Made by a program: the position numbers and the translations under genes. From sequence record PZ445532.1: 44,581 nt of DNA. One strand, 5' to 3'. The notes under the pieces were generated by a model. That model saw only the letters and a program-made list of their open reading frames with translations. It made no database searches and had not been told where the DNA came from. Position 1 is the stretch's first letter, and each line of letters starts with the position of its first letter. Shown here piece by piece: positions 1,398-43,966 of this stretch. Source of the stretch: a phage.

Positions 1398-2918
1398 ATG
1401 ACCGTTAACGTTGACAACCAGCACCCGCTCTATGCGCGCATCGCGCCAGAGTGGAAAATGATCCGTGACTGCGTAGCAGGGGAGCGCGCCGTGAAGGCGT
1501 GCGGCCCCTTGTACCTGCCACACCCCGCAAGCGGCGACACCACCGACCCGAAATCACGGGCACGGTATAAGGCATATAAGCAACGTGCTGTATTCCTGAA
1601 CGCCACCGCCCGCACACTGAATGCGCTGTTAGGGGTCGCCTTCGCCAAACCGGTGAGTATGGACCTTTCCGGGGCAATGGCTGACCTTATTGATGACGTT
1701 GACGGCAGCGGTATGCCGCTGGCGCAACTCCTGCGCGGTGCTATGTCTGAAGTTCTGCAATCAGGCCGTGCCGGGTTTATGGTCGACTACGACCGCCAGG
1801 CGCATTTTGACGAACTGGGTAACGTAGTACCGCAGACAGCCGCTGAAATGGCAGCACACCGCCCGCTTATCCGCCTGTATACGGCTGAACAGATCATTAA
1901 CTGGCGGCAGACCCACGGGGTCGACACGCTAATCGTGCTGAAGGAAACGGACGAAATCAGCACCGAAGACCCGGACGACTTCGCAAACCACGAGGTGACC
2001 ATCTGGACCGAGCTTCGCATGATTGAAGGCAAGGCACACGCCCGCCGCTGGTTTTACAATGCGGACACGTCAGAAGTGCAAATGGACTTGCCGCGGGGAT
2101 TCACCCGCACCGATCTTGTACCACTGGTGGATGCCTCCGGTAATGCGCTTACTCAACTGCCATTTTGCTGGTGTGGCGCGGTGGACAACAACGCGACACC
2201 GGACGCCGCACCACTGGCGGATATTGCATCCATCAACATTAAGCACTACAACGCCGAAGCAGACGTCGCCGAGATTGCGCACATCGTGGGTCAACCTACC
2301 CTCATTGCGACCGGCCTTACCCAGTCATGGGCGGACAAGAACCTGAAAGGCGGCATCGCGCTCGGGGCAACTAAGGGCGTTATCCTGGGCCAGAACATGG
2401 ACGCCAAACTGCTTCAGGCCGAAGAACGAAACCTATCGGTCGCACTGTGTGAACGCCGAGAGTTGCAAATGGCTAAACTGGGCGCGGCCCTTGTCGAGAA
2501 AGGGACCGCACCTAAGACGGCAACCGAGGCGGCTTATGATGCGCAGACTGATAACAGTATCCTGTCTCTGATTGCCGGTAACGTTGAGAAGGCTTTCAAC
2601 CGTGCGCTGCAAATTGTCCAGCTATTCACTGGTGACACCGCCGATCAGCGCGTAACGCTGAACAAGTTCTACACCGAAATCACGGTTGACGCGCAGCTTA
2701 TGACCGCAATGATGGCTGGTGTGCAGACCGGTACGGTCCGTCTGGCGGACTTTATCAAGTGGATGATGGCCCAGGGCGTTATTGACGACTCGCAAACCGT
2801 TGAGCAGGTGGAAGACGAATTGCGAAATCAGAATCCATTGCCTCAAATGTCCCCGGATGCGGTAGAATCTACCGAAGAAGACCCGGACAAGGTAGCGGAC
2901 AATGGCGAAGACAATTAA
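1398..2918 (+). CDS. portal protein
   Basis: 506-aa ORF directly after the large terminase. RBS AAGGAAA 6 nt upstream. Acidic C-terminus. Call rests on size and gene order. Confidence 0.8.
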   Translation: MTVNVDNQHPLYARIAPEWKMIRDCVAGERAVKACGPLYLPHPASGDTTDPKSRARYKAYKQRAVFLNATARTLNALLGVAFAKPVSMDLSGAMADLIDDVDGSGMPLAQLLRGAMSEVLQSGRAGFMVDYDRQAHFDELGNVVPQTAAEMAAHRPLIRLYTAEQIINWRQTHGVDTLIVLKETDEISTEDPDDFANHEVTIWTELRMIEGKAHARRWFYNADTSEVQMDLPRGFTRTDLVPLVDASGNALTQLPFCWCGAVDNNATPDAAPLADIASINIKHYNAEADVAEIAHIVGQPTLIATGLTQSWADKNLKGGIALGATKGVILGQNMDAKLLQAEERNLSVALCERRELQMAKLGAALVEKGTAPKTATEAAYDAQTDNSILSLIAGNVEKAFNRALQIVQLFTGDTADQRVTLNKFYTEITVDAQLMTAMMAGVQTGTVRLADFIKWMMAQGVIDDSQTVEQVEDELRNQNPLPQMSPDAVESTEEDPDKVADNGEDN

Positions 2919-4005
2919 TCAATATATGGCGGATCGAATGATCCGCCGACACATCTTCACCCAGCGCCTGAGCAATGACCAGGCGCGAAGGGTGCTGGCT
3001 ATGTGGGAGAAGTTCCGGCCTACGTTACTGGGAAAGCTGACTGAGTTGCTTGATGGCAAATCGTCAATGAACAACAAGGCACTTTCAACCCTGCTAACGC
3101 AACTCGACAAGACCGTTAAAACAGAACTGCGCACCGAGTTTAAGGCGTTGGCTGAAAGCCTTCAGGAGTTTGCCGACACCGAGGCCGATTATCTCGCCGA
3201 CACATTAACGGCAGCGATCCAGCCGGTGGTCGCCGTACCGGCGGTCGAGGTGGTTGGCGTAGTGACCGGTGCGCAGATCGCAGCGACGGCAATTAAAAAC
3301 CCGTTCCAGGGTAATACGATGATGCAATGGCCTGACTCACTTTCTGAGTGGACCAGGACGCAGATCGGCAATCAGGTGCGCGCCGGATTCATCCAGGGCA
3401 AGCCGACTATGGAAATTATTGCGGACGTGAGGCGCGCGCTCGGCGGTCGTAGTGCGCAAGCTATCTCGAGCGTTGTTAAATCCGCAGTAAACCACTATGC
3501 GGCGACTGCCCGCGAACTAATGGTAAAAGCAAATGACGATATTCTCGAAGGTCGCCAATGGTTATCTACATTGGACACGCATACTTCTCCCATGTGCCAG
3601 CTACGCGATCGCCTGTTTTATCCGGTTGATGTTACTCCCGACACCAAAGGAAAGCGCGGCGGGAAAGTGGTGGCTGGATCACAATATGGCGCTGGTCCAG
3701 GCAAGCTACATTATTGCTGCCGTTCGACGGAGACGTGGAAAGTCAAAGGTATGGAAGATTGGCCCAGTGGTAAGCGTCCGGCACTGAAGGCTGACGCGGG
3801 GCGATTGCTGAGTGAGCAGGTCGACGCGCAGACTGATTTCTTCTCATGGGTGCAGCGCCAGCCGCGCCATATCCTGGAGGAATTATACGGGGTGCAACGC
3901 GCCGACCAGATTATGCGCGGCGTGAAAGTCCCGAAGATGTTCACCGATTCCGGCGAACTAATGACTATCGCACAGCTTAAAAACCGGGGGTTATGGCGTG
4001 ATTAA
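2902..4005 (+). CDS. head morphogenesis protein (minor head protein, SPP1 gp7 / Mu F-like)
   Basis: 367-aa ORF overlapping the portal stop. Typical position after the portal gene. Confidence 0.6.
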   Translation: MAKTINQYMADRMIRRHIFTQRLSNDQARRVLAMWEKFRPTLLGKLTELLDGKSSMNNKALSTLLTQLDKTVKTELRTEFKALAESLQEFADTEADYLADTLTAAIQPVVAVPAVEVVGVVTGAQIAATAIKNPFQGNTMMQWPDSLSEWTRTQIGNQVRAGFIQGKPTMEIIADVRRALGGRSAQAISSVVKSAVNHYAATARELMVKANDDILEGRQWLSTLDTHTSPMCQLRDRLFYPVDVTPDTKGKRGGKVVAGSQYGAGPGKLHYCCRSTETWKVKGMEDWPSGKRPALKADAGRLLSEQVDAQTDFFSWVQRQPRHILEELYGVQRADQIMRGVKVPKMFTDSGELMTIAQLKNRGLWRD

Positions 4006-4327
4006 ATATGCGGCTATTGGACTGGTTATGGGTCTGGCGGTAGGATTCTGGCTAGGTGACTCCTACCGCGCTGGCGTAGTGGCGAAGGCGGCGCAAGAAG
4101 CGCAATCCCAAGCCCAACGGCAGCAAACTAAAGTAATTGAGCGCTCCGTGCAGGCAGAACAAGCCCGCGACGTGGAATACCGGACTATCACAAAAGAGGT
4201 TGTTAAATATGTTACGCGCCCTAACCGCCCTGATTGTAGTTTTGACGCTGAGCGCGTGCGGATCAAGCAGCGTGCCGTTGATGCCGCTAACGGAATCGGC
4301 ACTGCGACCGCCGTGCAAGTTCGATAA
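3998..4327 (+). CDS. i-spanin (Rz-like inner-membrane spanin component)
   Basis: GTG start. N-terminal transmembrane helix IGLVMGLAVGFWLG followed by a charged Gln/Ala-rich coiled-coil-like region. Overlapped in the +1 frame by a lipoprotein ORF. Confidence 0.6.
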   Translation: MIKYAAIGLVMGLAVGFWLGDSYRAGVVAKAAQEAQSQAQRQQTKVIERSVQAEQARDVEYRTITKEVVKYVTRPNRPDCSFDAERVRIKQRAVDAANGIGTATAVQVR

Positions 4328-4439
4328 CCCGTCTGCGGACCCCGACGAAGATTTGATGATTGACGTGAAAAATATGGAATGCGGGGCGAAGCTAAGGGCG
4401 CAGGTGCTGGAGTTGCAGCAAATAATTAAGGGGCCATAA
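4209..4439 (+). CDS. o-spanin (Rz1-like outer-membrane lipoprotein)
   Basis: 76-aa ORF in the +1 frame relative to the i-spanin. Signal peptide with lipobox LTLSAC|GSS, proline-rich mature part. RBS AAGAGG upstream. Confidence 0.62.
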   Translation: MLRALTALIVVLTLSACGSSSVPLMPLTESALRPPCKFDNPSADPDEDLMIDVKNMECGAKLRAQVLELQQIIKGP

Positions 4440-4451
4440 TGGCCCCTTTTT
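4430..4451. terminator. bidirectional rho-independent terminator
   Basis: GGGGCC-ATAAT-GGCCCC followed by TTTTT. The reverse complement is also followed by a T-rich tract. Sits between convergent genes. Confidence 0.7.
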
Positions 4452-4453
4452 CG

Positions 4454-5218
4454 TTAGCGCGGAATGCCGCAAATCTCGTTGAGTGTTTTCACATCCAGCG
4501 CCACCGCCGTGGATTTTGGCTTGTCCGGGTATGGGATGAATTGCTCAACTTCAGGCCATGCTTTAATCAGCTTCTTGTCAGTATTGTGCAGGTCCAGCAC
4601 ACCGGTAACGGTGAGTTTGAACGCGTCATACTTAGCACGCAACTCACGGCGGGCCTGGTCGTTACGGTCCAGGCGCTTACAGAAGTCATGGTCCGCAGGG
4701 TAATCTGCGCGACCGCGTGGGAGATATATCGGCAGCGCTTTCCCGTCCTCGTCCACTTCGCACACTGACGCGAGCATAACTGTCTCGAACCCCGGAACGA
4801 TATCGCCGAGATCAGGCGCGAGCTTATTCATATATTTCTCTTCCCAGTATCCGCGATGTACGCGGTATTGGTGACCGTCACCGCTCAAGGACAAGGTGCG
4901 AACATTTCCGCCTGCGTTGATTTCGAAAGTGGCGTCGTAAACGCTGCCGATACCTTTCGGGCGGTCGGTGTTATAACTATATGTCGCCTTGTTGGTATAT
5001 ACACTGACGCCGTACATCTGCGACGGGTCATCGACGATTGCGGCAATGCGCTCTAGTAGCTTGGCGAACGTGCGAATGCCTTCCGGCATACAGTCCAGCG
5101 TAATGGCATAAGCCAGGTCGCGCGAGTCCGTCATGATTTGTTTGGCTTCGGTTGCGATTTCGTGGTCGCGCAGGATGTTAGCCAGAATCTGATTTTTAAT
5201 GTCTTTAGTCAGTCTCAT
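4454..5218 (-). CDS. hypothetical protein (second gene of antisense cassette)
   Basis: 254-aa ORF. RBS GAGGA 7 nt upstream of the ATG. No recognisable motif. Co-oriented with the DnaN-like gene. Confidence 0.6.
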   Translation of the reverse strand: MRLTKDIKNQILANILRDHEIATEAKQIMTDSRDLAYAITLDCMPEGIRTFAKLLERIAAIVDDPSQMYGVSVYTNKATYSYNTDRPKGIGSVYDATFEINAGGNVRTLSLSGDGHQYRVHRGYWEEKYMNKLAPDLGDIVPGFETVMLASVCEVDEDGKALPIYLPRGRADYPADHDFCKRLDRNDQARRELRAKYDAFKLTVTGVLDLHNTDKKLIKAWPEVEQFIPYPDKPKSTAVALDVKTLNEICGIPR

Positions 5219-5299: not shown

Positions 5300-5818
5300 C
5301 TACAAACGCATCGGCATGATAACAAGGAAGGCACCGCCTTTGAACAGCACACGTGTCGCCTTGTCTACTCCCTGAAATTCCAGTTTTAAGCTATCAAACT
5401 TACGGTCGAACAATTTAGCAATTTTGCAGGCGTCGGACAGGTATACCCCGGCAAACCCTATAGCCTCCACTTTAGCGCTGTCGAAAGACGTAACACGACG
5501 CCAGTCTGGGAATCTGCCGTCTATGATCTCTACGGGTATGGTACCGATTAATACGTCTTTACTATCAAAGAACGCAGCGGATGTGCCGTCTATGTTGCAG
5601 TATTCGAATTTTGTAGGTAAGCGGCCTTTAATTGCTACTATTTTACTTTCACCTTCGGGAACAACCGCGGACCCGCAGAACAAACGATGACCGTCGGTGG
5701 CCACGATGAATCCTTTCTCGTCGAAAAATACACCATTCAGATAGTACCGCACGTCATTAGTTGCGGCGCACATCATAGCGGCTTTAAGATCGGCATAGTT
5801 AACTTTAATCATTGTCAT
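5300..5818 (-). CDS. truncated beta-sliding-clamp (DnaN) homologue, domain II plus C-terminal segment
   Basis: 172 aa from MTMIKVNY (internal start of the 5300..6259 ORF, RBS GAGGAA). Contains DVRYYLNGVFF, ATDGHRL, DGRFPDWRRV and C-terminal VIMPMRL. These match the conserved E. coli DnaN blocks DVRYYLNGMLF, ATDGHRLA, DGRFPDYRRV and C-terminal VVMPMRL (recalled from memory). Confidence 0.7.
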   Translation of the reverse strand: MTMIKVNYADLKAAMMCAATNDVRYYLNGVFFDEKGFIVATDGHRLFCGSAVVPEGESKIVAIKGRLPTKFEYCNIDGTSAAFFDSKDVLIGTIPVEIIDGRFPDWRRVTSFDSAKVEAIGFAGVYLSDACKIAKLFDRKFDSLKLEFQGVDKATRVLFKGGAFLVIMPMRL

Positions 5819-6759: not shown

Positions 6760-7860
6760 ATGTCTTTAACAGTGTTCCAGCGTAAACTCGTCACCGCGGT
6801 TACGCAAATGATCCCCGACAACCTGAACGTGTTCAACGCTGCCGCTAACGGCGCTGTTGTTCTCGGCACGGGTGAAGTGCTGAAGGACGTTGTAGAAAAA
6901 ATGTCCGTAGGCTTGATCGCCAACCTCGTTACCGACCGTAACGCCTATGCCCCCGTCGGTACTCCGGCGACAGCAAAAGTGCTGGCGCGTATGCTGACCA
7001 ACTCCGTTAACCTGTCCGCGAAAGTGGGTCCGGTAGCAATCACTAAGGCTATGATGGCTAAAATCGAAACCAACGTTAACAGCGTTGCGGCTGAGATTGC
7101 GGCACAGGCTACTCAAGCGATTATGCTGCATTACCTGAAGGCTGGCATCGGCGCAAGTAAAGCGGCGATCGAGAGCAACGCAGCGGCAAAATACACCCAA
7201 CCGGCGCGCGTTGACGGCGTTGGCGGTCGTACCTTCCCGACCCTGGCAGACTTCCCGCTGGCGGCTTCTAAGTTCGGCGATCAGGCGTCTTTGATTAAGT
7301 CCTGGTTTATGGACGGCGTCACCTGGGCAAACTTCATTGCGTACCAGGCACTCCCTTCCGCTGAACAGGTATTCGCAATTGGCGATCTCCAGGTAATGGG
7401 TGATGGCCTGGGCCGTCGCTTCATTATCTCCGATGCCGCTGCCGATGCTATGGGCACGGGTAACATGCTGGGTCTGGTCCCTGGCGCGGTTGCAGTTACC
7501 ACCAACGGTCTTGATATGCTGGCGCAGGAGAAAGGCGGTAACGAGAACATCGAACGTTGGTGGCAGGGCGAGTTCGACTTCAACGTGGCGGTTAAAGGCT
7601 ATCGTCTGAAGGCGTCCGCACGTACTCCGGTCGAAGGTGTTCGCTCGTTCAAACTGTCCGACATCACCACTTCCGCTAACTGGGAACTGGACCAGGGCCA
7701 GGTAGACAACGCCCCTGCAACCGTGCAGGACGTTGGCGCTGTTGGTGATGGCGATACTAAAGGCCGTCGTAAGACCCAGGCCGCACAGGAAGTGCCGACC
7801 CGTCACATCAAGGAAACGGCGGGCGTACTGGTTACGCTGACTGCGACCAAAGCGTCCTGA
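6760..7860 (+). CDS. major capsid protein
   Basis: 366-aa ORF after the scaffold gene, followed by a strong terminator. RBS AAAGGA. Confidence 0.7.
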   Translation: MSLTVFQRKLVTAVTQMIPDNLNVFNAAANGAVVLGTGEVLKDVVEKMSVGLIANLVTDRNAYAPVGTPATAKVLARMLTNSVNLSAKVGPVAITKAMMAKIETNVNSVAAEIAAQATQAIMLHYLKAGIGASKAAIESNAAAKYTQPARVDGVGGRTFPTLADFPLAASKFGDQASLIKSWFMDGVTWANFIAYQALPSAEQVFAIGDLQVMGDGLGRRFIISDAAADAMGTGNMLGLVPGAVAVTTNGLDMLAQEKGGNENIERWWQGEFDFNVAVKGYRLKASARTPVEGVRSFKLSDITTSANWELDQGQVDNAPATVQDVGAVGDGDTKGRRKTQAAQEVPTRHIKETAGVLVTLTATKAS

Positions 7861-7878
7861 TCTACGCACATCCCAAAT

Positions 7879-7903
7879 GGGCGGGCTTATGCCCGCCTTT
7901 TTT
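7879..7903 (+). terminator. rho-independent terminator
   Basis: GGGCGGGC-TTAT-GCCCGCC followed by TTTTTT. Confidence 0.8.
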
Positions 7904-7918
7904 ATAGGAGCAAATAAG

Positions 7919-8419
7919 ATGTATGGCGACCCGCAAACATTTGTTGTTTATGCCGCGGCGCGAGGCGTTGAAATTACGCAGAGCGACGCAACGCGACACC
8001 TTACCATTGTTAATGACTTCCTTAACGGCATCGACTGGATCGGCGAACAAGCGGACCCGACCGGAATTGACGCATGGCCCCGCGTCAACTACCCGTCAGA
8101 CGGTAAGCCGGTGCAAAACACACTTACTGAAGATTTGACAGTAGTTCCGGCGGGGCAGATTGTAGACTTCGCATCAATCCCTGTTGCCGTTGAGCAAGCA
8201 GTTTACCGGCTGGCAATGTTGGTGGCGGACGATGTTGATATTTCTCCGGTCAGCGATGGTAAGGAGACTATCCGTGAAACGGTAGGCCCGATCACGATGG
8301 AGTATGACGCCGCGACGATTGGTAGCGGTGTATCTTTCCCGTGGTGGGATGGCTTGCTGGGCTACTGGGTGAATGTAGACGGCAACGCAGCGGGTAATTT
8401 TGACGTATTCCGGGGGTGA
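7919..8419 (+). CDS. structural protein, possible head-tail connector/adaptor
   Basis: 166 aa from MYGDPQTF (RBS AGGAG). The ORF-track start at 7877 lies inside the terminator. Function from position only. Confidence 0.5.
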   Translation: MYGDPQTFVVYAAARGVEITQSDATRHLTIVNDFLNGIDWIGEQADPTGIDAWPRVNYPSDGKPVQNTLTEDLTVVPAGQIVDFASIPVAVEQAVYRLAMLVADDVDISPVSDGKETIRETVGPITMEYDAATIGSGVSFPWWDGLLGYWVNVDGNAAGNFDVFRG

Positions 8420-21654: not shown

Positions 21655-21680
21655 AGAAAGCCCCTTTCGGGGCTTATTTA
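21655..21680. terminator. hairpin shared by convergent genes (weak terminator)
   Basis: AAGCCCC-TTTC-GGGGCTT. Modest T-tracts on both sides. Confidence 0.45.
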
Positions 21681-21892
21681 CAGGTTGTGCTTTTGAAGTG
21701 GTCAACCGACACATACTGGAAGTTGAAGGGGTATCCCGCCCGTAACATTTTATGACCGCTAACGTCTGCAACCCCAAACACAGGGACGGAATACTCCATA
21801 CCACTATTCATGTATGTTGCGTCGCAGATTTTAGACGGCATGTCGGCACAACCCGCCAACAGAACCGCACAAATCATAATTAAAGTTTTCAT
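21674..21892 (-). CDS. small lipoprotein, candidate superinfection-exclusion protein (Cor/Llp-like)
   Basis: 72 aa from MKTLIMICAVLLAGCADMP (RBS AGGAG). Lipobox LLAGC. Antisense between tail genes. Confidence 0.6.
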   Translation of the reverse strand: MKTLIMICAVLLAGCADMPSKICDATYMNSGMEYSVPVFGVADVSGHKMLRAGYPFNFQYVSVDHFKSTTCK

Positions 21893-41450: not shown

Positions 41451-41593
41451 GCGCAACTATCCGCGATATGCTCATGCATAACCGCTTTGAGATAGGCGGG
41501 CGAGTATTCCGCAATTACTTCGTGGCGCGTGCATGGGCGCGCCATATTGGCAAACCGGAAGGGGCAATTCGATGCTATACGTCTTCGCGGTAG
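41447..41593 (+). CDS. small hypothetical ORF (48 aa)
   Basis: ATG overlaps the upstream stop (ATGA). Overlaps the 41572 peptide ORF in another frame, so only one of the two may be real. Confidence 0.25.
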   Translation: MSATIRDMLMHNRFEIGGRVFRNYFVARAWARHIGKPEGAIRCYTSSR

Positions 41594-41673
41594 TATGTGG
41601 CGGTAGTCTGGCGGCCCTGGTGCTGTTGGCGTCGGTTATTAGTCTGGTTAAATACCTATGGGGCAGATTATGA
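41572..41673 (+). CDS. hydrophobic micropeptide (33 aa, single predicted TM helix)
   Basis: MLYVFAVVCGGSLAALVLLASVISLVKYLWGRL. RBS GGAAGGGG 8 nt upstream. Stop overlaps the next ATG. Confidence 0.35.
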   Translation: MLYVFAVVCGGSLAALVLLASVISLVKYLWGRL

Positions 41674-41957
41674 TTCATGATGTGATTTATTGGTTTGGTA
41701 TGGCAAGCATATTATGCCTGGTTACGGGAGCGCTGGGCGCGATATGGGTATTCCTGGTATGGCCCGCCGTGGAAGCCGCCAGCATTACCCGCATGACGTT
41801 CGAGGTATACAAGCGCCGTGGAATCACGGAGCACCCGACCAGGTTGCGCATGTGGTGGCTGTGGTATCGGGATATGATTGGGGGCCGGATGTTCGAGGCC
41901 GTCAGATCGGAAGGATGGGAGTGGAAAGGCGTCGGCAAGTGGTCCGTTTTCGATTAA
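41670..41957 (+). CDS. membrane protein
   Basis: 95 aa from MIHDVIYWFGMASILCLVTGALGAIWVFLVW. One N-terminal TM helix, Trp/Arg-rich tail. Confidence 0.5.
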   Translation: MIHDVIYWFGMASILCLVTGALGAIWVFLVWPAVEAASITRMTFEVYKRRGITEHPTRLRMWWLWYRDMIGGRMFEAVRSEGWEWKGVGKWSVFD

Positions 41958-41974
41958 TTATGCAAGCGTGATAT

Positions 41975-42009
41975 AGTCCCAGTGAGATAAAACTTACTGG
42001 GACTTTTTT
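41975..42009 (+). terminator. rho-independent terminator
   Basis: AGTCCCAGT-(12-nt loop)-ACTGGGACT followed by TTTTT. Confidence 0.7.
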
Positions 42010-42300
42010 ATGGATAAGCTAAACGAGTGGTTATTCGCCCTTGCGTGTCTTGCTGGTGGCTTCGTCGGCGCACGCATTCATGGCGAGGCAACGAAAGGGC
42101 CGTTGAACTTCGTTTTATATATCGTGGTTGGCTTCCTGTGTGCCATATTTGGTGCGCCAGCTATTGCCGAGTGGTCTGGTTTGTCTGGTGAGCGCACTGT
42201 TGCCGGTTTGGGCTTCGTAACTGCCATCTTCTGGATGCCAATAGCGGACCGGATCCGGGAGACTATTGCGTCGTTCCGACTTCCAGGGGGTGCAAAATGA
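42010..42300 (+). CDS. holin-like membrane protein
   Basis: 96 aa with 2-3 hydrophobic helices, immediately upstream of the endolysin block. Confidence 0.6.
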   Translation: MDKLNEWLFALACLAGGFVGARIHGEATKGPLNFVLYIVVGFLCAIFGAPAIAEWSGLSGERTVAGLGFVTAIFWMPIADRIRETIASFRLPGGAK

Positions 42301-42542
42301 TTATCTCCGTCCTGTTGTTTGTTATCATAGGGGCTTCGTCCCTGTTTAACGTGTATGCGCCGTCCGTTCAGGATGGCATCTTAGGCCGGGTGCTGTATCT
42401 GTTAACGGCAATGATCTGTCTTATCGGATTGCTGCAAACAGGAGACGTATCGGATACCACCTGGACCGCGTTAATCTGGCTGTTTGCATTGCGCACACTG
42501 CGTAATGCTGTTTTAAATGGGGTAAAACATGCGATTCAGTGA
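42297..42542 (+). CDS. second holin/antiholin-like membrane protein
   Basis: 81 aa with hydrophobic helices. Start and stop overlap the neighbouring genes. Confidence 0.5.
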   Translation: MIISVLLFVIIGASSLFNVYAPSVQDGILGRVLYLLTAMICLIGLLQTGDVSDTTWTALIWLFALRTLRNAVLNGVKHAIQ

Positions 42543-43020
42543 TAACGGTCTACGATTTACGGCAGCATGGGAGGCTTTCAGCCCAGTGCCGTATTTCGCG
42601 ACCAAGAAAGAGCAGGCCCGCGGCCTGTACACCTGGGGTTATGGGCACACCGGCACTAATCCGCCACGAAGCATTACCCGTGCGGAAGCGCTGGAACTGC
42701 TCAAGCGAGATGTGGCGTATGCCGAGGACTGGGTGAACAAATACGCACATCCGAGCATTAACCAGGCGCAATTCGACGCGCTGGTGGACCTGGTAATCAA
42801 TGCCGGTCAGGGTCCGATCGTACCGGATGACGTCGCGAATGATTTCGACGATGCGGTCCGCCTGGGCGACTGGGCGAAGGTCCGTGCTACACTGCCGCAG
42901 TTCCGCAAGCAAGGCGGGGAAGTGCTTAAGGGTCTGGTGCGCCGTGCAATCGGTAGACAGGCGTTGTTTGATGGTAAGCAGTGGGACGTTGCCGAGAAAA
43001 TCGGGCGTAACGCAGCATAA
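42529..43020 (+). CDS. endolysin (GH24 lysozyme-like)
   Basis: 163 aa with the lysozyme-like block YTWGYGHTG and surrounding conserved acidic residues. Confidence 0.85.
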   Translation: MRFSDNGLRFTAAWEAFSPVPYFATKKEQARGLYTWGYGHTGTNPPRSITRAEALELLKRDVAYAEDWVNKYAHPSINQAQFDALVDLVINAGQGPIVPDDVANDFDDAVRLGDWAKVRATLPQFRKQGGEVLKGLVRRAIGRQALFDGKQWDVAEKIGRNAA

Positions 43021-43035
43021 TACGAGGAACACAAT

Positions 43036-43449
43036 ATGTTAAAAAGCATTCTTGATCATAACGCCGACGCACTTGCTGCACTGGCTAAAACCGAAGACCC
43101 TGGCGCACGCGCTATCATCGCGGACACTATCAGCCATGCAGGCGTCTTTGACGCGAAGCTGCCGAGTGTGCCGGAAAGAAAGCCCGTGGCAAGTGCGACC
43201 GTAACCATCACCCCAGTGTCAGCCGCAGTTGGTGCGAAGGCCACCGCTTCTGTTGCCGTCCTGCCATCCGACGCAACTAACAAGGCCGGGAAGTGGGTGT
43301 CCGCAAACCCTGACTGCGCGGCAGTCAACCAGACTACCGGCGAAATCACAGCAAAATCGGAGGGTGGCGTCCACATCTTTTGGGTGGCATCCGATGGAGG
43401 CGGGGCGATGGCGTCCGCCATCTTCACCGTAACGGGAGCAGGAAAATAA
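43036..43449 (+). CDS. Ig-like (Big_2-like) domain protein
   Basis: 137 aa. C-terminal half resembles bacterial Ig-like domains (...ITAKSEGGVHIFWVASDGGG...FTVT). Confidence 0.55.
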   Translation: MLKSILDHNADALAALAKTEDPGARAIIADTISHAGVFDAKLPSVPERKPVASATVTITPVSAAVGAKATASVAVLPSDATNKAGKWVSANPDCAAVNQTTGEITAKSEGGVHIFWVASDGGGAMASAIFTVTGAGK

Positions 43450-43455
43450 AACCAC

Positions 43456-43481
43456 AAGCCCGGTTAATTCCGGGCTTTTTA
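43456..43481 (+). terminator. rho-independent terminator
   Basis: AAGCCCGG-TTAATT-CCGGGCTT followed by TTTTTA. Confidence 0.75.
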
Positions 43482-43545: not shown

Positions 43546-43632
43546 ATGGCACGTAATGATATTTTGGTGTTGGCAATATGGTCCACTGCGGCATTCATTG
43601 GTATGGTTATTTGTCAGGTGATAAATGGCTGA
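43546..43632 (+). CDS. hydrophobic micropeptide (28 aa)
   Basis: MARNDILVLAIWSTAAFIGMVICQVING. Strong RBS GAGAGGAG 7 nt upstream. TGCAACCAA motif at 43492. Not in the ORF track (below 60 aa). Confidence 0.35.
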   Translation: MARNDILVLAIWSTAAFIGMVICQVING

Positions 43633-43913: not shown

Positions 43914-43940
43914 CCCTCCCAGCCCGCCGATTTGGTGGGC

Positions 43941-43966
43941 TTTTTTGTGCCTGTTATAATCCCCCT
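43941..43966 (+). terminator. rho-independent terminator
   Basis: AGCCCGCC-GATTT-GGTGGGCT (one G-U pair) followed by TTTTTT. Confidence 0.6.

What the first reader, a model, noticed from the sequence alone, without database searches (positions are those of the whole stretch)
3998..4439. Overlapping spanin pair located in the head module, about 5 kb from the holin/endolysin cassette
A TM-anchored protein (3998..4327) is overlapped in the +1 frame by a lipobox-containing, proline-rich lipoprotein (4209..4439). That is the classic Rz/Rz1 architecture. The pair is separated from the holin-like genes and endolysin (42010..43020) by the terminase, portal and head-morphogenesis genes, so the lysis functions are split across two transcription units.
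Basis: partly seen in the sequence, partly recalled or inferred. Interest (0 to 1): 0.5.

Follow-up and report, generated by a model that had tools for sequence, protein, structure and literature searches.

The report
Known overlapped spanin pair, Dhillonvirus
The two overlapping genes are the outer-membrane-breaking "spanin" pair of an HK578-like coliphage, already catalogued in close relatives; comparison with distant relatives also suggests that a helix found on the inner-membrane subunit in other phages sits on the outer-membrane subunit here.

Summary
The window is a complete Dhillonvirus (HK578-like) genome. ORF 3998..4327 encodes a 109-aa protein with one N-terminal transmembrane segment. 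ORF 4209..4439, in the +1 frame with a 119-nt overlap, encodes a 76-aa lipoprotein precursor (lipobox LSAC, Cys17). Both match PHROG "Rz-like spanin" families, are intact in all 17 distinct Dhillonvirus sequences compared, and are under purifying selection.

It is not new. Kongari et al. 2018 place EP23, HK578, JL1, SSL-2009a and SO-1 in the overlapped "Jersey" spanin family. GenBank records already annotate these genes as i-/o-spanin. Phage Jersey has the same split from the holin–endolysin cassette (about 5.6 kb, across the genome junction), and a Kagunavirus has the spanins in the same head-module position. Three strong terminator hairpins delimit units, but transcription is untested.

One result goes beyond the finding. 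In embedded relatives the same C-terminal helix sits at the end of a long i-spanin. In overlapped relatives, including this phage, it sits on the o-spanin. An indel of length 1 mod 3 separates close relatives with the two arrangements. The 2018 survey reported no family mixing embedded with other architectures.

The parts
3998..4327 (+). i-spanin gene (109 aa, GTG start): one N-terminal TMD and a helical periplasmic domain with Cys80
   Evidence: ORF. Hydropathy. phrog_2536 'Rz-like spanin' at 5.1e-36. Annotated i-spanin in phage Oekolampad. dN/dS 0.14. AF2 helices 3-73 and 84-97 at low confidence, with the tail 102-109 below pLDDT 50.
4004..4057 (+). Approximate transmembrane segment of the i-spanin (residues ~3-20, KYAAIGLVMGLAVGFWLG)
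   Evidence: Kyte-Doolittle 19-residue mean of 1.76 at residues 1-19. The boundaries are approximate.
4190..4211 (+). Dual-coding stretch: the i-spanin codons T-K-E-V-V-K-Y also carry the o-spanin Shine-Dalgarno (AAGAGG, 4194..4199) and its ATG (4209..4211, from TAT-G)
   Evidence: Sequence. The o-spanin ATG lies at +1 of the Tyr codon of this motif in 18 of 19 embedded and 42 of 44 overlapped relatives.
4209..4439 (+). o-spanin gene (76-aa lipoprotein precursor), +1 frame, 119-nt overlap with the i-spanin
   Evidence: ORF and lipobox. phrog_5672 at 2.5e-26 and phrog_1267 at 2.4e-11. Annotated o-spanin in Oekolampad and 'putative spanin' in JLBYU60. Intact in 17 of 17 Dhillonvirus sequences.
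4209..4259 (+). Lipoprotein signal peptide with lipobox L-S-A-C; the Cys17 codon is 4257..4259
   Evidence: Regex and hydropathy. Invariant S15, A16, C17, G18 in the alignment of relatives.
4260..4340 (+). Pro-rich, probably extended linker of the mature o-spanin (residues 18-44, includes Cys36)
   Evidence: Six of the seven Pro lie here. AF2 gives almost no regular structure here apart from a 4-residue helix at 29-32. pLDDT is below 50 for residues 14-26, with block means of 47 and 49 for residues 11-30.
4341..4430 (+). C-terminal helix of the o-spanin (residues 45-74, includes Cys58): the module that sits at the C-terminus of the i-spanin in embedded relatives
   Evidence: AF2 helix 45-74, block-mean pLDDT 92 for residues 41-60. 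dN/dS 0.10. hhalign against the i-spanin-borne module gives score 23.0 and P 2.2e-5, reached by 0 of 600 column shuffles. Gapless common alignment.
4428..4448 (.). Bidirectional intrinsic-terminator-like hairpin that overlaps the o-spanin stop codon
   Evidence: Nine-pair stem with T-runs on both strands. -15.8 kcal/mol, matched by 0 of 200 shuffles. Terminators are annotated at this spot in the HK578 record.
2902..4005 (+). Head-morphogenesis gene immediately upstream; its stop overlaps the i-spanin start
   Evidence: phrog_241 at 4.7e-116. Annotation in relatives.
42010..42300 (+). Holin (first of two)
   Evidence: phrog_2359 'holin' at 2e-31.
42297..42542 (+). Holin (second of two)
   Evidence: phrog_2508 'holin' at 8.8e-27.
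42529..43020 (+). Endolysin (lysozyme family)
   Evidence: PF00959 at 3.8e-21. phrog_7 at 2.6e-35.
43456..43477 (+). Terminator-like hairpin after the lysis cassette and the Ig-like gene
   Evidence: -15.0 kcal/mol, matched by 0 of 200 shuffles.
43921..43941 (+). Terminator-like hairpin just upstream of TerS
   Evidence: -15.2 kcal/mol, matched by 0 of 200 shuffles.

Best explanation
[quoted passage not shown] They belong to the overlapped 'Jersey' spanin family.

What the sequence shows:
- The 109-aa protein has one N-terminal membrane anchor and a helical remainder.
- The 76-aa protein is a lipoprotein precursor with a sorting signal compatible with the outer membrane. Its mature form is a Pro-rich linker followed by a 30-residue helix.
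- Both genes are conserved and under purifying selection.
- They are read from one stretch of DNA. The o-spanin ribosome-binding site and ATG are written inside the i-spanin codons K-E-V-V-K-Y.

Inferred from work on lambda Rz/Rz1, not tested for this family: the two subunits join across the periplasm. Once holin and endolysin have removed the peptidoglycan, the complex disrupts the outer membrane, probably by fusing the two membranes. This is the last step of lysis.

Inferred from comparative data here: the o-spanin helix is homologous to the C-terminal helix of the long i-spanins in embedded relatives. The contact between subunits is therefore probably between that helix and the second helix of the i-spanin (residues ~84-97). 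In lambda, by contrast, the contact is between the two C-termini.

The pair lies at the end of the terminase-portal-head-morphogenesis gene string, 5.6 kb downstream of the holin-endolysin cassette. This position is shared with Jerseyvirus and Kagunavirus. It should not matter for function, because spanins are harmless until the wall is degraded.
For: - Anatomy.
- PHROG spanin families.
- 158 phage records share this DNA at 80-99% identity. Several annotate 'Rz-like spanin', and Oekolampad annotates i-/o-spanin.
- Kongari 2018 lists EP23, HK578, JL1, SSL-2009a and SO-1 in the overlapped Jersey families. It describes them as the shorter subfamily, with two conserved o-spanin cysteines.
- tblastn finds homologues of both proteins in about 650-670 phage records, mostly Jerseyvirus and Kagunavirus.
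- Purifying selection acts on both frames.
- AF2 predicts a confident helix at o-spanin residues 45-74.
- The same genome layout is seen in phage Jersey, and the same spanin position in Kagunavirus Bas76. A paper on the Jerseyvirus SeF1 lists the same PHROG families for its spanins and holins.
- In more distant relatives the homologous pair directly adjoins an endolysin gene, which ties the family to lysis.
Against: - I found no experiment on any member of this family. The function rests on architecture and on linkage to endolysin genes in relatives.
- Pfam, NCBIfam and PDB sequence searches give nothing, so there is no sequence link to lambda Rz/Rz1.
- The i-spanin structure prediction has low confidence, with mean pLDDT 56.7.
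- The pair is not next to the holin and endolysin in this phage.
Confidence: 0.9

Rival explanations
1. The pair is a membrane protein plus a lipoprotein with a non-lysis role, for example superinfection exclusion or a head-assembly accessory. The head-module location would then reflect its real function.
For: It lies between the head-morphogenesis gene and the scaffold and capsid genes, not in the lysis cassette. No member of the family has been tested, as far as I could find. Phage lipoproteins such as Cor do act in exclusion, and this genome has one at 21892..21674.
Against: The nested +1 gene pair, TMD protein plus outer-membrane lipoprotein, is the spanin signature. The homologous pairs in L021-23, L087, L098, L078, L103, phiR18 and RSP15 sit directly beside an endolysin gene. 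No other spanin candidate exists in the window, and a phage of a Gram-negative host normally needs one.
Confidence: 0.05
2. A long Rz-like protein is also made by a programmed +1 frameshift near the end of the i-spanin ORF. This would join the i-spanin body to the helix encoded in the o-spanin frame and recreate the long form seen in embedded relatives.
For: The helix lies in the +1 frame just downstream of the i-spanin stop, so a single +1 shift would rebuild a protein of about 145 aa that resembles the long i-spanins.
Against: No known +1 shift-prone motif is visible in 4300..4327. The end of the i-spanin is not conserved: relatives stop at 102 or 109 codons with different tails. The o-spanin has its own strong Shine-Dalgarno sequence and ATG. 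The tail is disordered and variable.
Confidence: 0.02
3. The resemblance between the o-spanin helix of this phage and the C-terminal helix of long i-spanins is convergence between amphipathic, Cys-containing helices. It would not be common descent by a frame change.
For: A profile built only from i-spanin-borne helices does not hit the window's o-spanin directly. It hits Jersey-type and L021-type o-spanins only at E 0.05-0.6 in a 7909-ORF database. The hhalign probability is 76%, not above 95%. The segment is only about 30 residues.
Against: - The hhalign score of 23.0 (P 2.2e-5) compares with shuffle means of 8.4 and 7.6 and shuffle maxima of 15.3 and 12.4. None of 600 shuffles reached it. 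Natural helix controls score 9.1 and 6.3.
- In the first HMM search, nearly all hits ranked after the training set, down to E about 0.6, are o-spanin-frame ORFs; one other ORF intrudes.
- L078 and L101 o-spanins score 45.0 and 36.5 bits. The embedded relative L103 differs from them by a net 28 nt, which is 1 mod 3.
- The o-spanin start site is the same in both architectures.
- The alignment is gapless, with bridging sequences such as L056.
Confidence: 0.2

Closest known systems
'Jersey' overlapped i-spanin and o-spanin families of Kongari et al. 2018 (PMC6139136). Members include Jersey, SETP3, SE2, K1G/K1ind, EP23, HK578, JL1, SSL-2009a and SO-1.
   Same: Same protein families: PHROG 2536 for the i-spanin and PHROG 5672 and 1267 for the o-spanin. 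Same +1 overlapped arrangement. Same short i-spanin subfamily with two helices. Same two conserved periplasmic o-spanin cysteines. Same position after the head-morphogenesis gene. DNA is 94-95% identical to EP23 and SSL-2009a.
   Different: Nothing of substance; this phage is one more isolate. The Dhillonvirus i-spanins (102-109 aa) are shorter than Jersey's (128 aa), and the overlap is 98-119 nt against 155 nt.
Phage P2 LysB/LysC, named in Kongari 2018 as the experimentally tested overlapped two-component spanin
   Same: The o-spanin gene starts inside the i-spanin gene in the +1 frame and ends beyond it. A TMD protein is paired with an outer-membrane lipoprotein.
   Different: I found no detectable sequence similarity. 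P2 LysB/LysC are listed as a separate family in the 2018 catalogue. From my own knowledge, the P2 genes lie in the lysis cassette.
Lambda Rz/Rz1, the embedded prototype
   Same: Presumed function and topology; the nested +1 gene; periplasmic cysteines for homodimer disulfides.
   Different: Lambda Rz1 lies entirely within Rz. The lambda o-spanin is 40 aa, Pro-rich and has no helix. Lambda Rz (153 aa) keeps its own C-terminal helix. No Pfam match was found. The lambda genes follow the endolysin gene directly.
T4 PseT.3/PseT.2 spanins
   Same: The spanin genes are located away from the holin and endolysin genes. The o-spanin has a predicted C-terminal helix and is larger than lambda Rz1 (Kongari 2018, Fig. 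8 legend).
   Different: The T4 genes are separated rather than overlapped, and they belong to an unrelated sequence family.
Long i-spanins with embedded o-spanins in uncultivated phage contigs and in Luteibacter phage Pluto (L024, L026, L027, L031, L103 and others). Ralstonia phage RSP15 has a long i-spanin with a separate o-spanin.
   Same: Homologous i-spanin core (..ITKEVVKY..C..). The o-spanin ATG and Shine-Dalgarno sequence lie at the same codons. The Pro-rich o-spanin N-terminal part is homologous (compare PPCKFD with PPIKFE). The same C-terminal helix module is present.
   Different: In these relatives the helix is the C-terminus of the i-spanin (154-195 aa) and the o-spanin is short (46-79 aa precursor). 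In the window the helix is the C-terminus of the o-spanin and the i-spanin is short. Several of these relatives have an endolysin gene directly beside the pair: L103, RSP15 and 5 of the 19 embedded loci.

Membership tests
Two-component spanin (i-spanin + o-spanin) | The i-spanin has a single N-terminal TMD and a largely helical periplasmic domain | tested here: met
   Kyte-Doolittle mean of 1.76 over residues 1-19 and no other hydrophobic segment. AF2 helices at 3-73 and 84-97, at low confidence.
Two-component spanin (i-spanin + o-spanin) | The o-spanin has a signal peptidase II signal with a lipobox Cys, and no inner-membrane retention residue (Asp) at +2 | tested here: met
   MLRALTALIVVLTLSA|CGS: Arg3, a hydrophobic core, L-S-A-C, and Gly at +2. 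Residues S15, A16, C17 and G18 are invariant in relatives. SignalP and LipoP were not available.
Two-component spanin (i-spanin + o-spanin) | Periplasmic cysteines are available for homotypic disulfides | tested here: met
   i-spanin Cys80; o-spanin Cys36 and Cys58. These are invariant in the alignments. Disulfide formation itself was not tested.
Two-component spanin (i-spanin + o-spanin) | The two subunits form a complex and are required for outer-membrane disruption at lysis | not testable with these tools
   This needs genetics and biochemistry. I found no published test for any Jersey-family member.
Overlapped architecture class (Kongari 2018) | The o-spanin gene starts within the i-spanin gene and extends beyond its stop | tested here: met
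   The o-spanin start at 4209 precedes the i-spanin stop at 4327, which precedes the o-spanin stop at 4439. The frame is +1 and the overlap is 119 nt.
'Jersey' spanin sequence family | Sequence homology of both subunits to family members | tested here: met
   phrog_2536 at 5.1e-36; phrog_5672 at 2.5e-26; phrog_1267 at 2.4e-11. These PHROG families are the ones assigned to the Jerseyvirus SeF1 spanins. tblastn hits Jersey, SE2 and K1ind at 1e-6 to 1e-11. EP23 and HK578, which are listed members, are 94-97% identical.
Lambda Rz/Rz1 family (embedded) | Match to a Pfam family model, such as the lambda-type Rz/Rz1 models | tested here: not met
   No Pfam family matched at E<=1 for either protein. 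No spanin model matched in NCBIfam.
Lambda Rz/Rz1 family (embedded) | The o-spanin gene lies wholly inside the i-spanin gene | tested here: not met
   The o-spanin extends 112 nt past the i-spanin stop.
Unimolecular spanin (T1 gp11 type) | One protein carries both an N-terminal lipobox and a C-terminal TMD | tested here: not met
   The o-spanin has no C-terminal hydrophobic segment. No such ORF exists elsewhere in the window.
Classical lysis cassette | The spanin genes are adjacent to the holin and endolysin genes | tested here: not met
   5558 nt and at least seven genes lie between them. Adjacency is not a defining feature of spanins; T4 is a precedent.

The most novel reading that the evidence does not exclude
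The Jersey/Dhillonvirus overlapped spanins and a group of embedded spanins form one family. In this family a roughly 30-residue C-terminal helix has changed owner through an indel of length 1 mod 3 in the shared DNA. In embedded members, and in some separated ones, the helix ends the i-spanin. In overlapped members, including this window (o-spanin residues 45-74), it ends the o-spanin.

The point at which the periplasm-spanning complex is divided into an inner-membrane piece and an outer-membrane piece would therefore be evolutionarily movable. This would contradict the 2018 conclusion that no family mixes embedded with other architectures and that the architectures arose in parallel.
Probability: 0.7. 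Interest if true: 0.5.

Novelty: already known. Interest (0 to 1): 0.3.

Why it matters
The finding as stated adds little. The spanin pair and its position are already recorded for this phage genus, and spanin genes unlinked from the lysis cassette have a textbook precedent in T4. One practical point is that many GenBank records of these phages still label one or both genes 'hypothetical'. The RefSeq record of EP23 starts the o-spanin at an internal codon, giving 52 aa without the lipobox.

The comparative result may matter more. If the same helix can be carried by either subunit, the subunit interface of spanins is not fixed. Natural embedded/overlapped pairs such as L103 and L078 would then allow a test of which contacts are needed for membrane fusion. 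It would also give a concrete one-step route between gene architectures that were thought to have evolved separately.

Tried and rejected
- Pfam, NCBIfam and PDB sequence searches with both proteins found nothing useful.
- The word-indexed protein search returned only near-identical Dhillonvirus proteins: 6 for the o-spanin and 61 for the i-spanin. It did not help with distant relatives.
- The exhaustive representative search with the i-spanin gave 49 clusters. These supplied the long forms P0093, P0113 and P0114.
- A profile HMM built only from i-spanin-borne helices did not reach the window's own o-spanin. A second iteration with bridging sequences was still marginal for Jersey-type o-spanins, at E 0.05-0.5. 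The link to the window therefore rests on profile-profile comparison plus transitivity.
- The first run of the shuffle control timed out and was repeated.
- A second spanin or a unimolecular spanin next to the endolysin was considered and rejected. The next gene is a Big_2 Ig-like protein. The only other credible lipoprotein is Cor.
- Programmed frameshifting was considered and rejected (see rival explanations).
- Sigma-70 promoter scans were no better than shuffles, so operon starts could not be placed.
- AF2 on the i-spanin alone had low confidence. A model of the complex could not be submitted with the allowed inputs.
Full report
**What the window is.** The region 3400..5300 matches 158 phage records at 80-99% identity. 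Nearly all are Dhillonvirus (HK578-like) coliphages of about 44-45 kb. The window begins at the ATG of the large terminase. The small-terminase ORF (44031..) completes its stop codon with window base 1 (TGATG). In the relative Zar3M, the window's end region and its spanin region are contiguous at the expected spacing. The window is therefore a whole genome opened at TerL, and distances may be measured across its ends.

**Checking the observation.**
- ORF 3998..4327 (GTG start, 109 aa) begins 8 nt before the end of the head-morphogenesis gene (2902..4005, phrog_241 at 4.7e-116). Its only hydrophobic segment is at the N-terminus (Kyte-Doolittle mean 1.76 over residues 1-19), and it has one Cys, at position 80.
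- ORF 4209..4439 lies in the +1 frame, overlaps the first ORF by 119 nt and encodes MLRALTALIVVLTLSA|CGS... This has a basic n-region, a hydrophobic core, the lipobox L-S-A-C and Gly at +2. Its Shine-Dalgarno sequence AAGAGG lies 9 nt upstream of the ATG.
- The mature 60-residue protein has two parts. The first 29 residues contain six of the seven prolines and Cys36. AlphaFold then predicts a helix at precursor residues 45-74, with block-mean pLDDT of 92 over residues 41-60, which contains Cys58.
- A nine-pair hairpin with T-runs on both strands overlaps the stop codon (4428..4448; -15.8 kcal/mol).

**Is it more than chance?**
- All 17 distinct Dhillonvirus sequences keep both frames open, with the same start and the same lipobox.
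- Nei-Gojobori dN/dS is 0.14 for the non-overlapping part of the first gene and 0.10 for that of the second. The same DNA read in the unused frames gives 1.3-4.8. In the overlap both frames give intermediate values (0.29 and 0.54), as expected for dual coding.
- A scan of the whole genome for lipoprotein signals found one other credible candidate, a Cor superinfection-exclusion homologue at 21892..21674.

**Identity.**
- PHROGs assigns the first protein to phrog_2536 (5.1e-36) and the second to phrog_5672 (2.5e-26) and phrog_1267 (2.4e-11). All three are labelled 'Rz-like spanin'. Pfam, NCBIfam and PDB sequence searches give nothing.
- GenBank already carries the annotation. Oekolampad bas18_0005 and bas18_0006 are 'i-spanin' and 'o-spanin' at the homologous coordinates. 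RefSeq EP23, SSL-2009a and YD-2008.s have 'Rz-like spanin' twice. EP23p06 is called from an internal start, so it lacks the signal peptide.
- Kongari et al. 2018 (PMC6139136) list EP23, HK578, JL1, SSL-2009a and SO-1 in the overlapped 'Jersey' i- and o-spanin families. They describe these phages as the shorter subfamily, with two helices and two constant o-spanin cysteines.
- The identification is therefore right and is already in the literature. I found no experimental test of any member of this family, so function rests on architecture and context.

**The location.**
- The holins are 42010..42300 (phrog_2359) and 42297..42542 (phrog_2508). The endolysin is 42529..43020 (PF00959).
- Between the endolysin stop and the i-spanin start lie 5558 nt. 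These hold an Ig-like gene, small ORFs, TerS, TerL, portal and head morphogenesis, all on the plus strand.
- Stable hairpins followed by U-runs stand at 41975..42004 (before the holins), 43456..43477, 43921..43941 (before TerS) and 4428..4448 (after the spanins). Their energies are -15 to -20 kcal/mol, and none of 200 shuffles folded as well.
- This pattern fits separate transcription units, but promoter scans were uninformative and read-through cannot be excluded.
- The split is not peculiar to this phage. Phage Jersey has holin 41182, lysin 41733..42221, TerS at 40 and spanins at 7501..7996. Kagunavirus Bas76 has the spanins between the head-morphogenesis and scaffold genes. A paper on Jerseyvirus SeF1 lists spanins Gp_009/010 and holins/endolysin Gp_063-065 with the same PHROG families for the spanins and holins. 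A paper on the Dhillonvirus P78 lists endolysin 0033 and spanin 0040.
- In more distant homologues the pair sits directly beside an endolysin gene: L021-23, L087, L098, L078, L103, phiR18 and RSP15. This ties the family to lysis. It also shows that the head-module position occurs only in the Dhillonvirus/Jerseyvirus/Kagunavirus-type loci of this sample. T4 is the known precedent for unlinked spanin genes.

**What turned up beyond the finding.**

*The pattern.* Among distant relatives of the i-spanin, some are long (154-195 aa) and carry a short o-spanin wholly embedded in the +1 frame. Their last ~35 residues (consensus ..AL.VV..NY..C......L.GWQ.WY..) resemble the C-terminus of the o-spanin in the overlapped relatives. 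I extracted 70 non-redundant i/o pairs from 102 loci.

*Tests for the module.*
- A profile built only from the i-spanin-borne segment (28 sequences) was searched against all six-frame ORFs of the window and loci (7909 ORFs). After the training sequences, it hit the o-spanin ORFs of the overlapped loci L078 (45.0 bits, E 2.4e-12) and L101 (36.5 bits, 1.1e-9).
- Next came L056 (E 0.005) and phiR18 (E 0.028), followed by a run of L021-type o-spanins at E 0.1-0.6. Only one unrelated ORF ranked among them.
- tblastn of the long i-spanins against overlapped loci shows the frame switch directly. The N-terminal part aligns in the i-spanin frame and the last ~35 residues align in the +1 frame (also the two-piece hit to phiR18 and KPP25).
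- L103 is embedded and lies next to an endolysin. L078 and L101 are overlapped. Their DNA aligns throughout, apart from a 31-nt and a 3-nt length difference between the conserved core and the helix. The net difference is 28 nt, which is 1 mod 3.

*The link to the window's own o-spanin is weaker.*
- The profile does not hit it directly.
- Profile-profile comparison is clearer. The C-terminal 40 residues of 23 Dhillon, Jersey, Kaguna, L021, L068 and SP-031-type o-spanins were compared with the i-borne module. hhalign gives score 23.0, P 2.2e-5 and probability 76%, over 28 gapless columns that cover window o-spanin residues 49-76.
- None of 300 + 300 column shuffles reached that score (means 8.4 and 7.6; maxima 15.3 and 12.4). 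Two natural helical controls scored 9.1 and 6.3. An independent MAFFT alignment of all segments is gapless and in the same register.
- With the combined profile, the module lies in the i-spanin in 19 of 19 embedded pairs. It lies in the o-spanin in 40 of 44 overlapped pairs. Two barely overlapped pairs keep it in the i-spanin, and two divergent pairs are unassigned. Separated pairs occur in both states: RSP15 and L062 have it in the i-spanin, and FSL SP-031 has it in the o-spanin.

*Shared start site.* The two architectures also share their nested start. The o-spanin ATG lies at +1 of the Tyr codon of the conserved i-spanin motif KEVVKY[VA] in 18 of 19 embedded and 42 of 44 overlapped pairs. 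The K-E codons supply the Shine-Dalgarno sequence.

[quoted passage not shown] They favoured parallel, unrelated origins. They do not mention this relationship, and two further literature searches found nothing. I rate the module-transfer reading at about 0.7 for the window's own protein. It is higher for the L103/L078 case.

**How it most likely works.**
- Shown by the sequence: an inner-membrane-anchored helical protein and an outer-membrane lipoprotein are produced from nested genes. Both are conserved.
- Inferred from lambda Rz/Rz1 (established knowledge; not tested here): the two proteins join across the periplasm and accumulate harmlessly during late gene expression. After the holin triggers and the endolysin removes the wall, they disrupt the outer membrane by bringing the two membranes together.
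- Inferred from the comparison above: in this family the heterotypic contact is probably between the o-spanin helix (45-74) and the second i-spanin helix (84-97). The i-spanin tail encoded in the overlap (98-109) is dispensable. It is variable (relatives stop at 102 or 109 residues) and is predicted to be disordered.

**Verdict.** The feature itself is already known, so I score interest low to moderate. The score is raised only by the unreported family link between embedded and overlapped spanins.

Noticed in passing
window 4454..5218 (-): A 254-aa protein with a full-length Nmad5 domain (PF18757 'nucleotide modification associated domain 5', 1.1e-57). It is transcribed towards the spanin terminator. 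Its role in a Dhillonvirus is unclear.
   Followed up: no
window ~5300..5818 (-): A 172-aa protein that PHROGs labels 'RusA-like Holliday junction resolvase' (phrog_3007, 2e-56), and EP23 RefSeq annotates its homologue the same way. It also gives weak matches to the DNA polymerase III beta-clamp central domain (PF02767, 24.4 bits, below the 27-bit cut-off) and to a processivity-factor PHROG. The RusA label may be wrong.
   Followed up: partly
window 21892..21674 (-): A 72-aa lipoprotein (lipobox LLAGC) just after the tail-fibre genes. It matches the Cor superinfection-exclusion family (phrog_1119, 6.5e-28) and is the only other credible lipoprotein in the genome.
   Followed up: partly
window 43036..43449 (+): A 137-aa protein with a Big_2 Ig-like domain (PF02368, 8.7e-11) lies directly after the endolysin, inside the unit closed by the 43456..43477 hairpin. 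This is an odd place for a probable virion decoration protein.
   Followed up: no
window 41533..41673 (+), 41658..41957 (+) and 43546..43632 (+): Small ORFs flank the lysis cassette. The 41658..41957 product matches phrog_2531 (unknown function). The other two are short hydrophobic peptides whose PHROG scans gave no match. They could be accessory lysis regulators or could be spurious.
   Followed up: no
L001 (Shigella phage EP23, RefSeq NC_016566.1) 2382..2540: EP23p06 'Rz-like spanin' is annotated from an internal start (52 aa) and so lacks the signal peptide and lipobox. The full ORF starts at locus position 2310 (76 aa). phrog_5672, a 47-position profile, matches only residues 32-76 of the window's o-spanin, so it appears to be built from such truncated calls.
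   Followed up: partly
window 4190..4211, and the same motif in loci L019-L101: The most conserved stretch of the i-spanin family (T-K-E-V-V-K-Y-V) is also the ribosome-binding site and start codon of the o-spanin (AAAGAGGnnnnnAAATATG). The motif is still conserved in the relatives with separated genes (RSP15, FSL SP-031, L062), so the constraint is not only translational.
   Followed up: partly
L046 and L050 (IMG/VR contigs): In these pairs the o-spanin stop lies only 13 nt past the i-spanin stop, and the helix is still in the i-spanin. They are borderline between embedded and overlapped.
   Followed up: no
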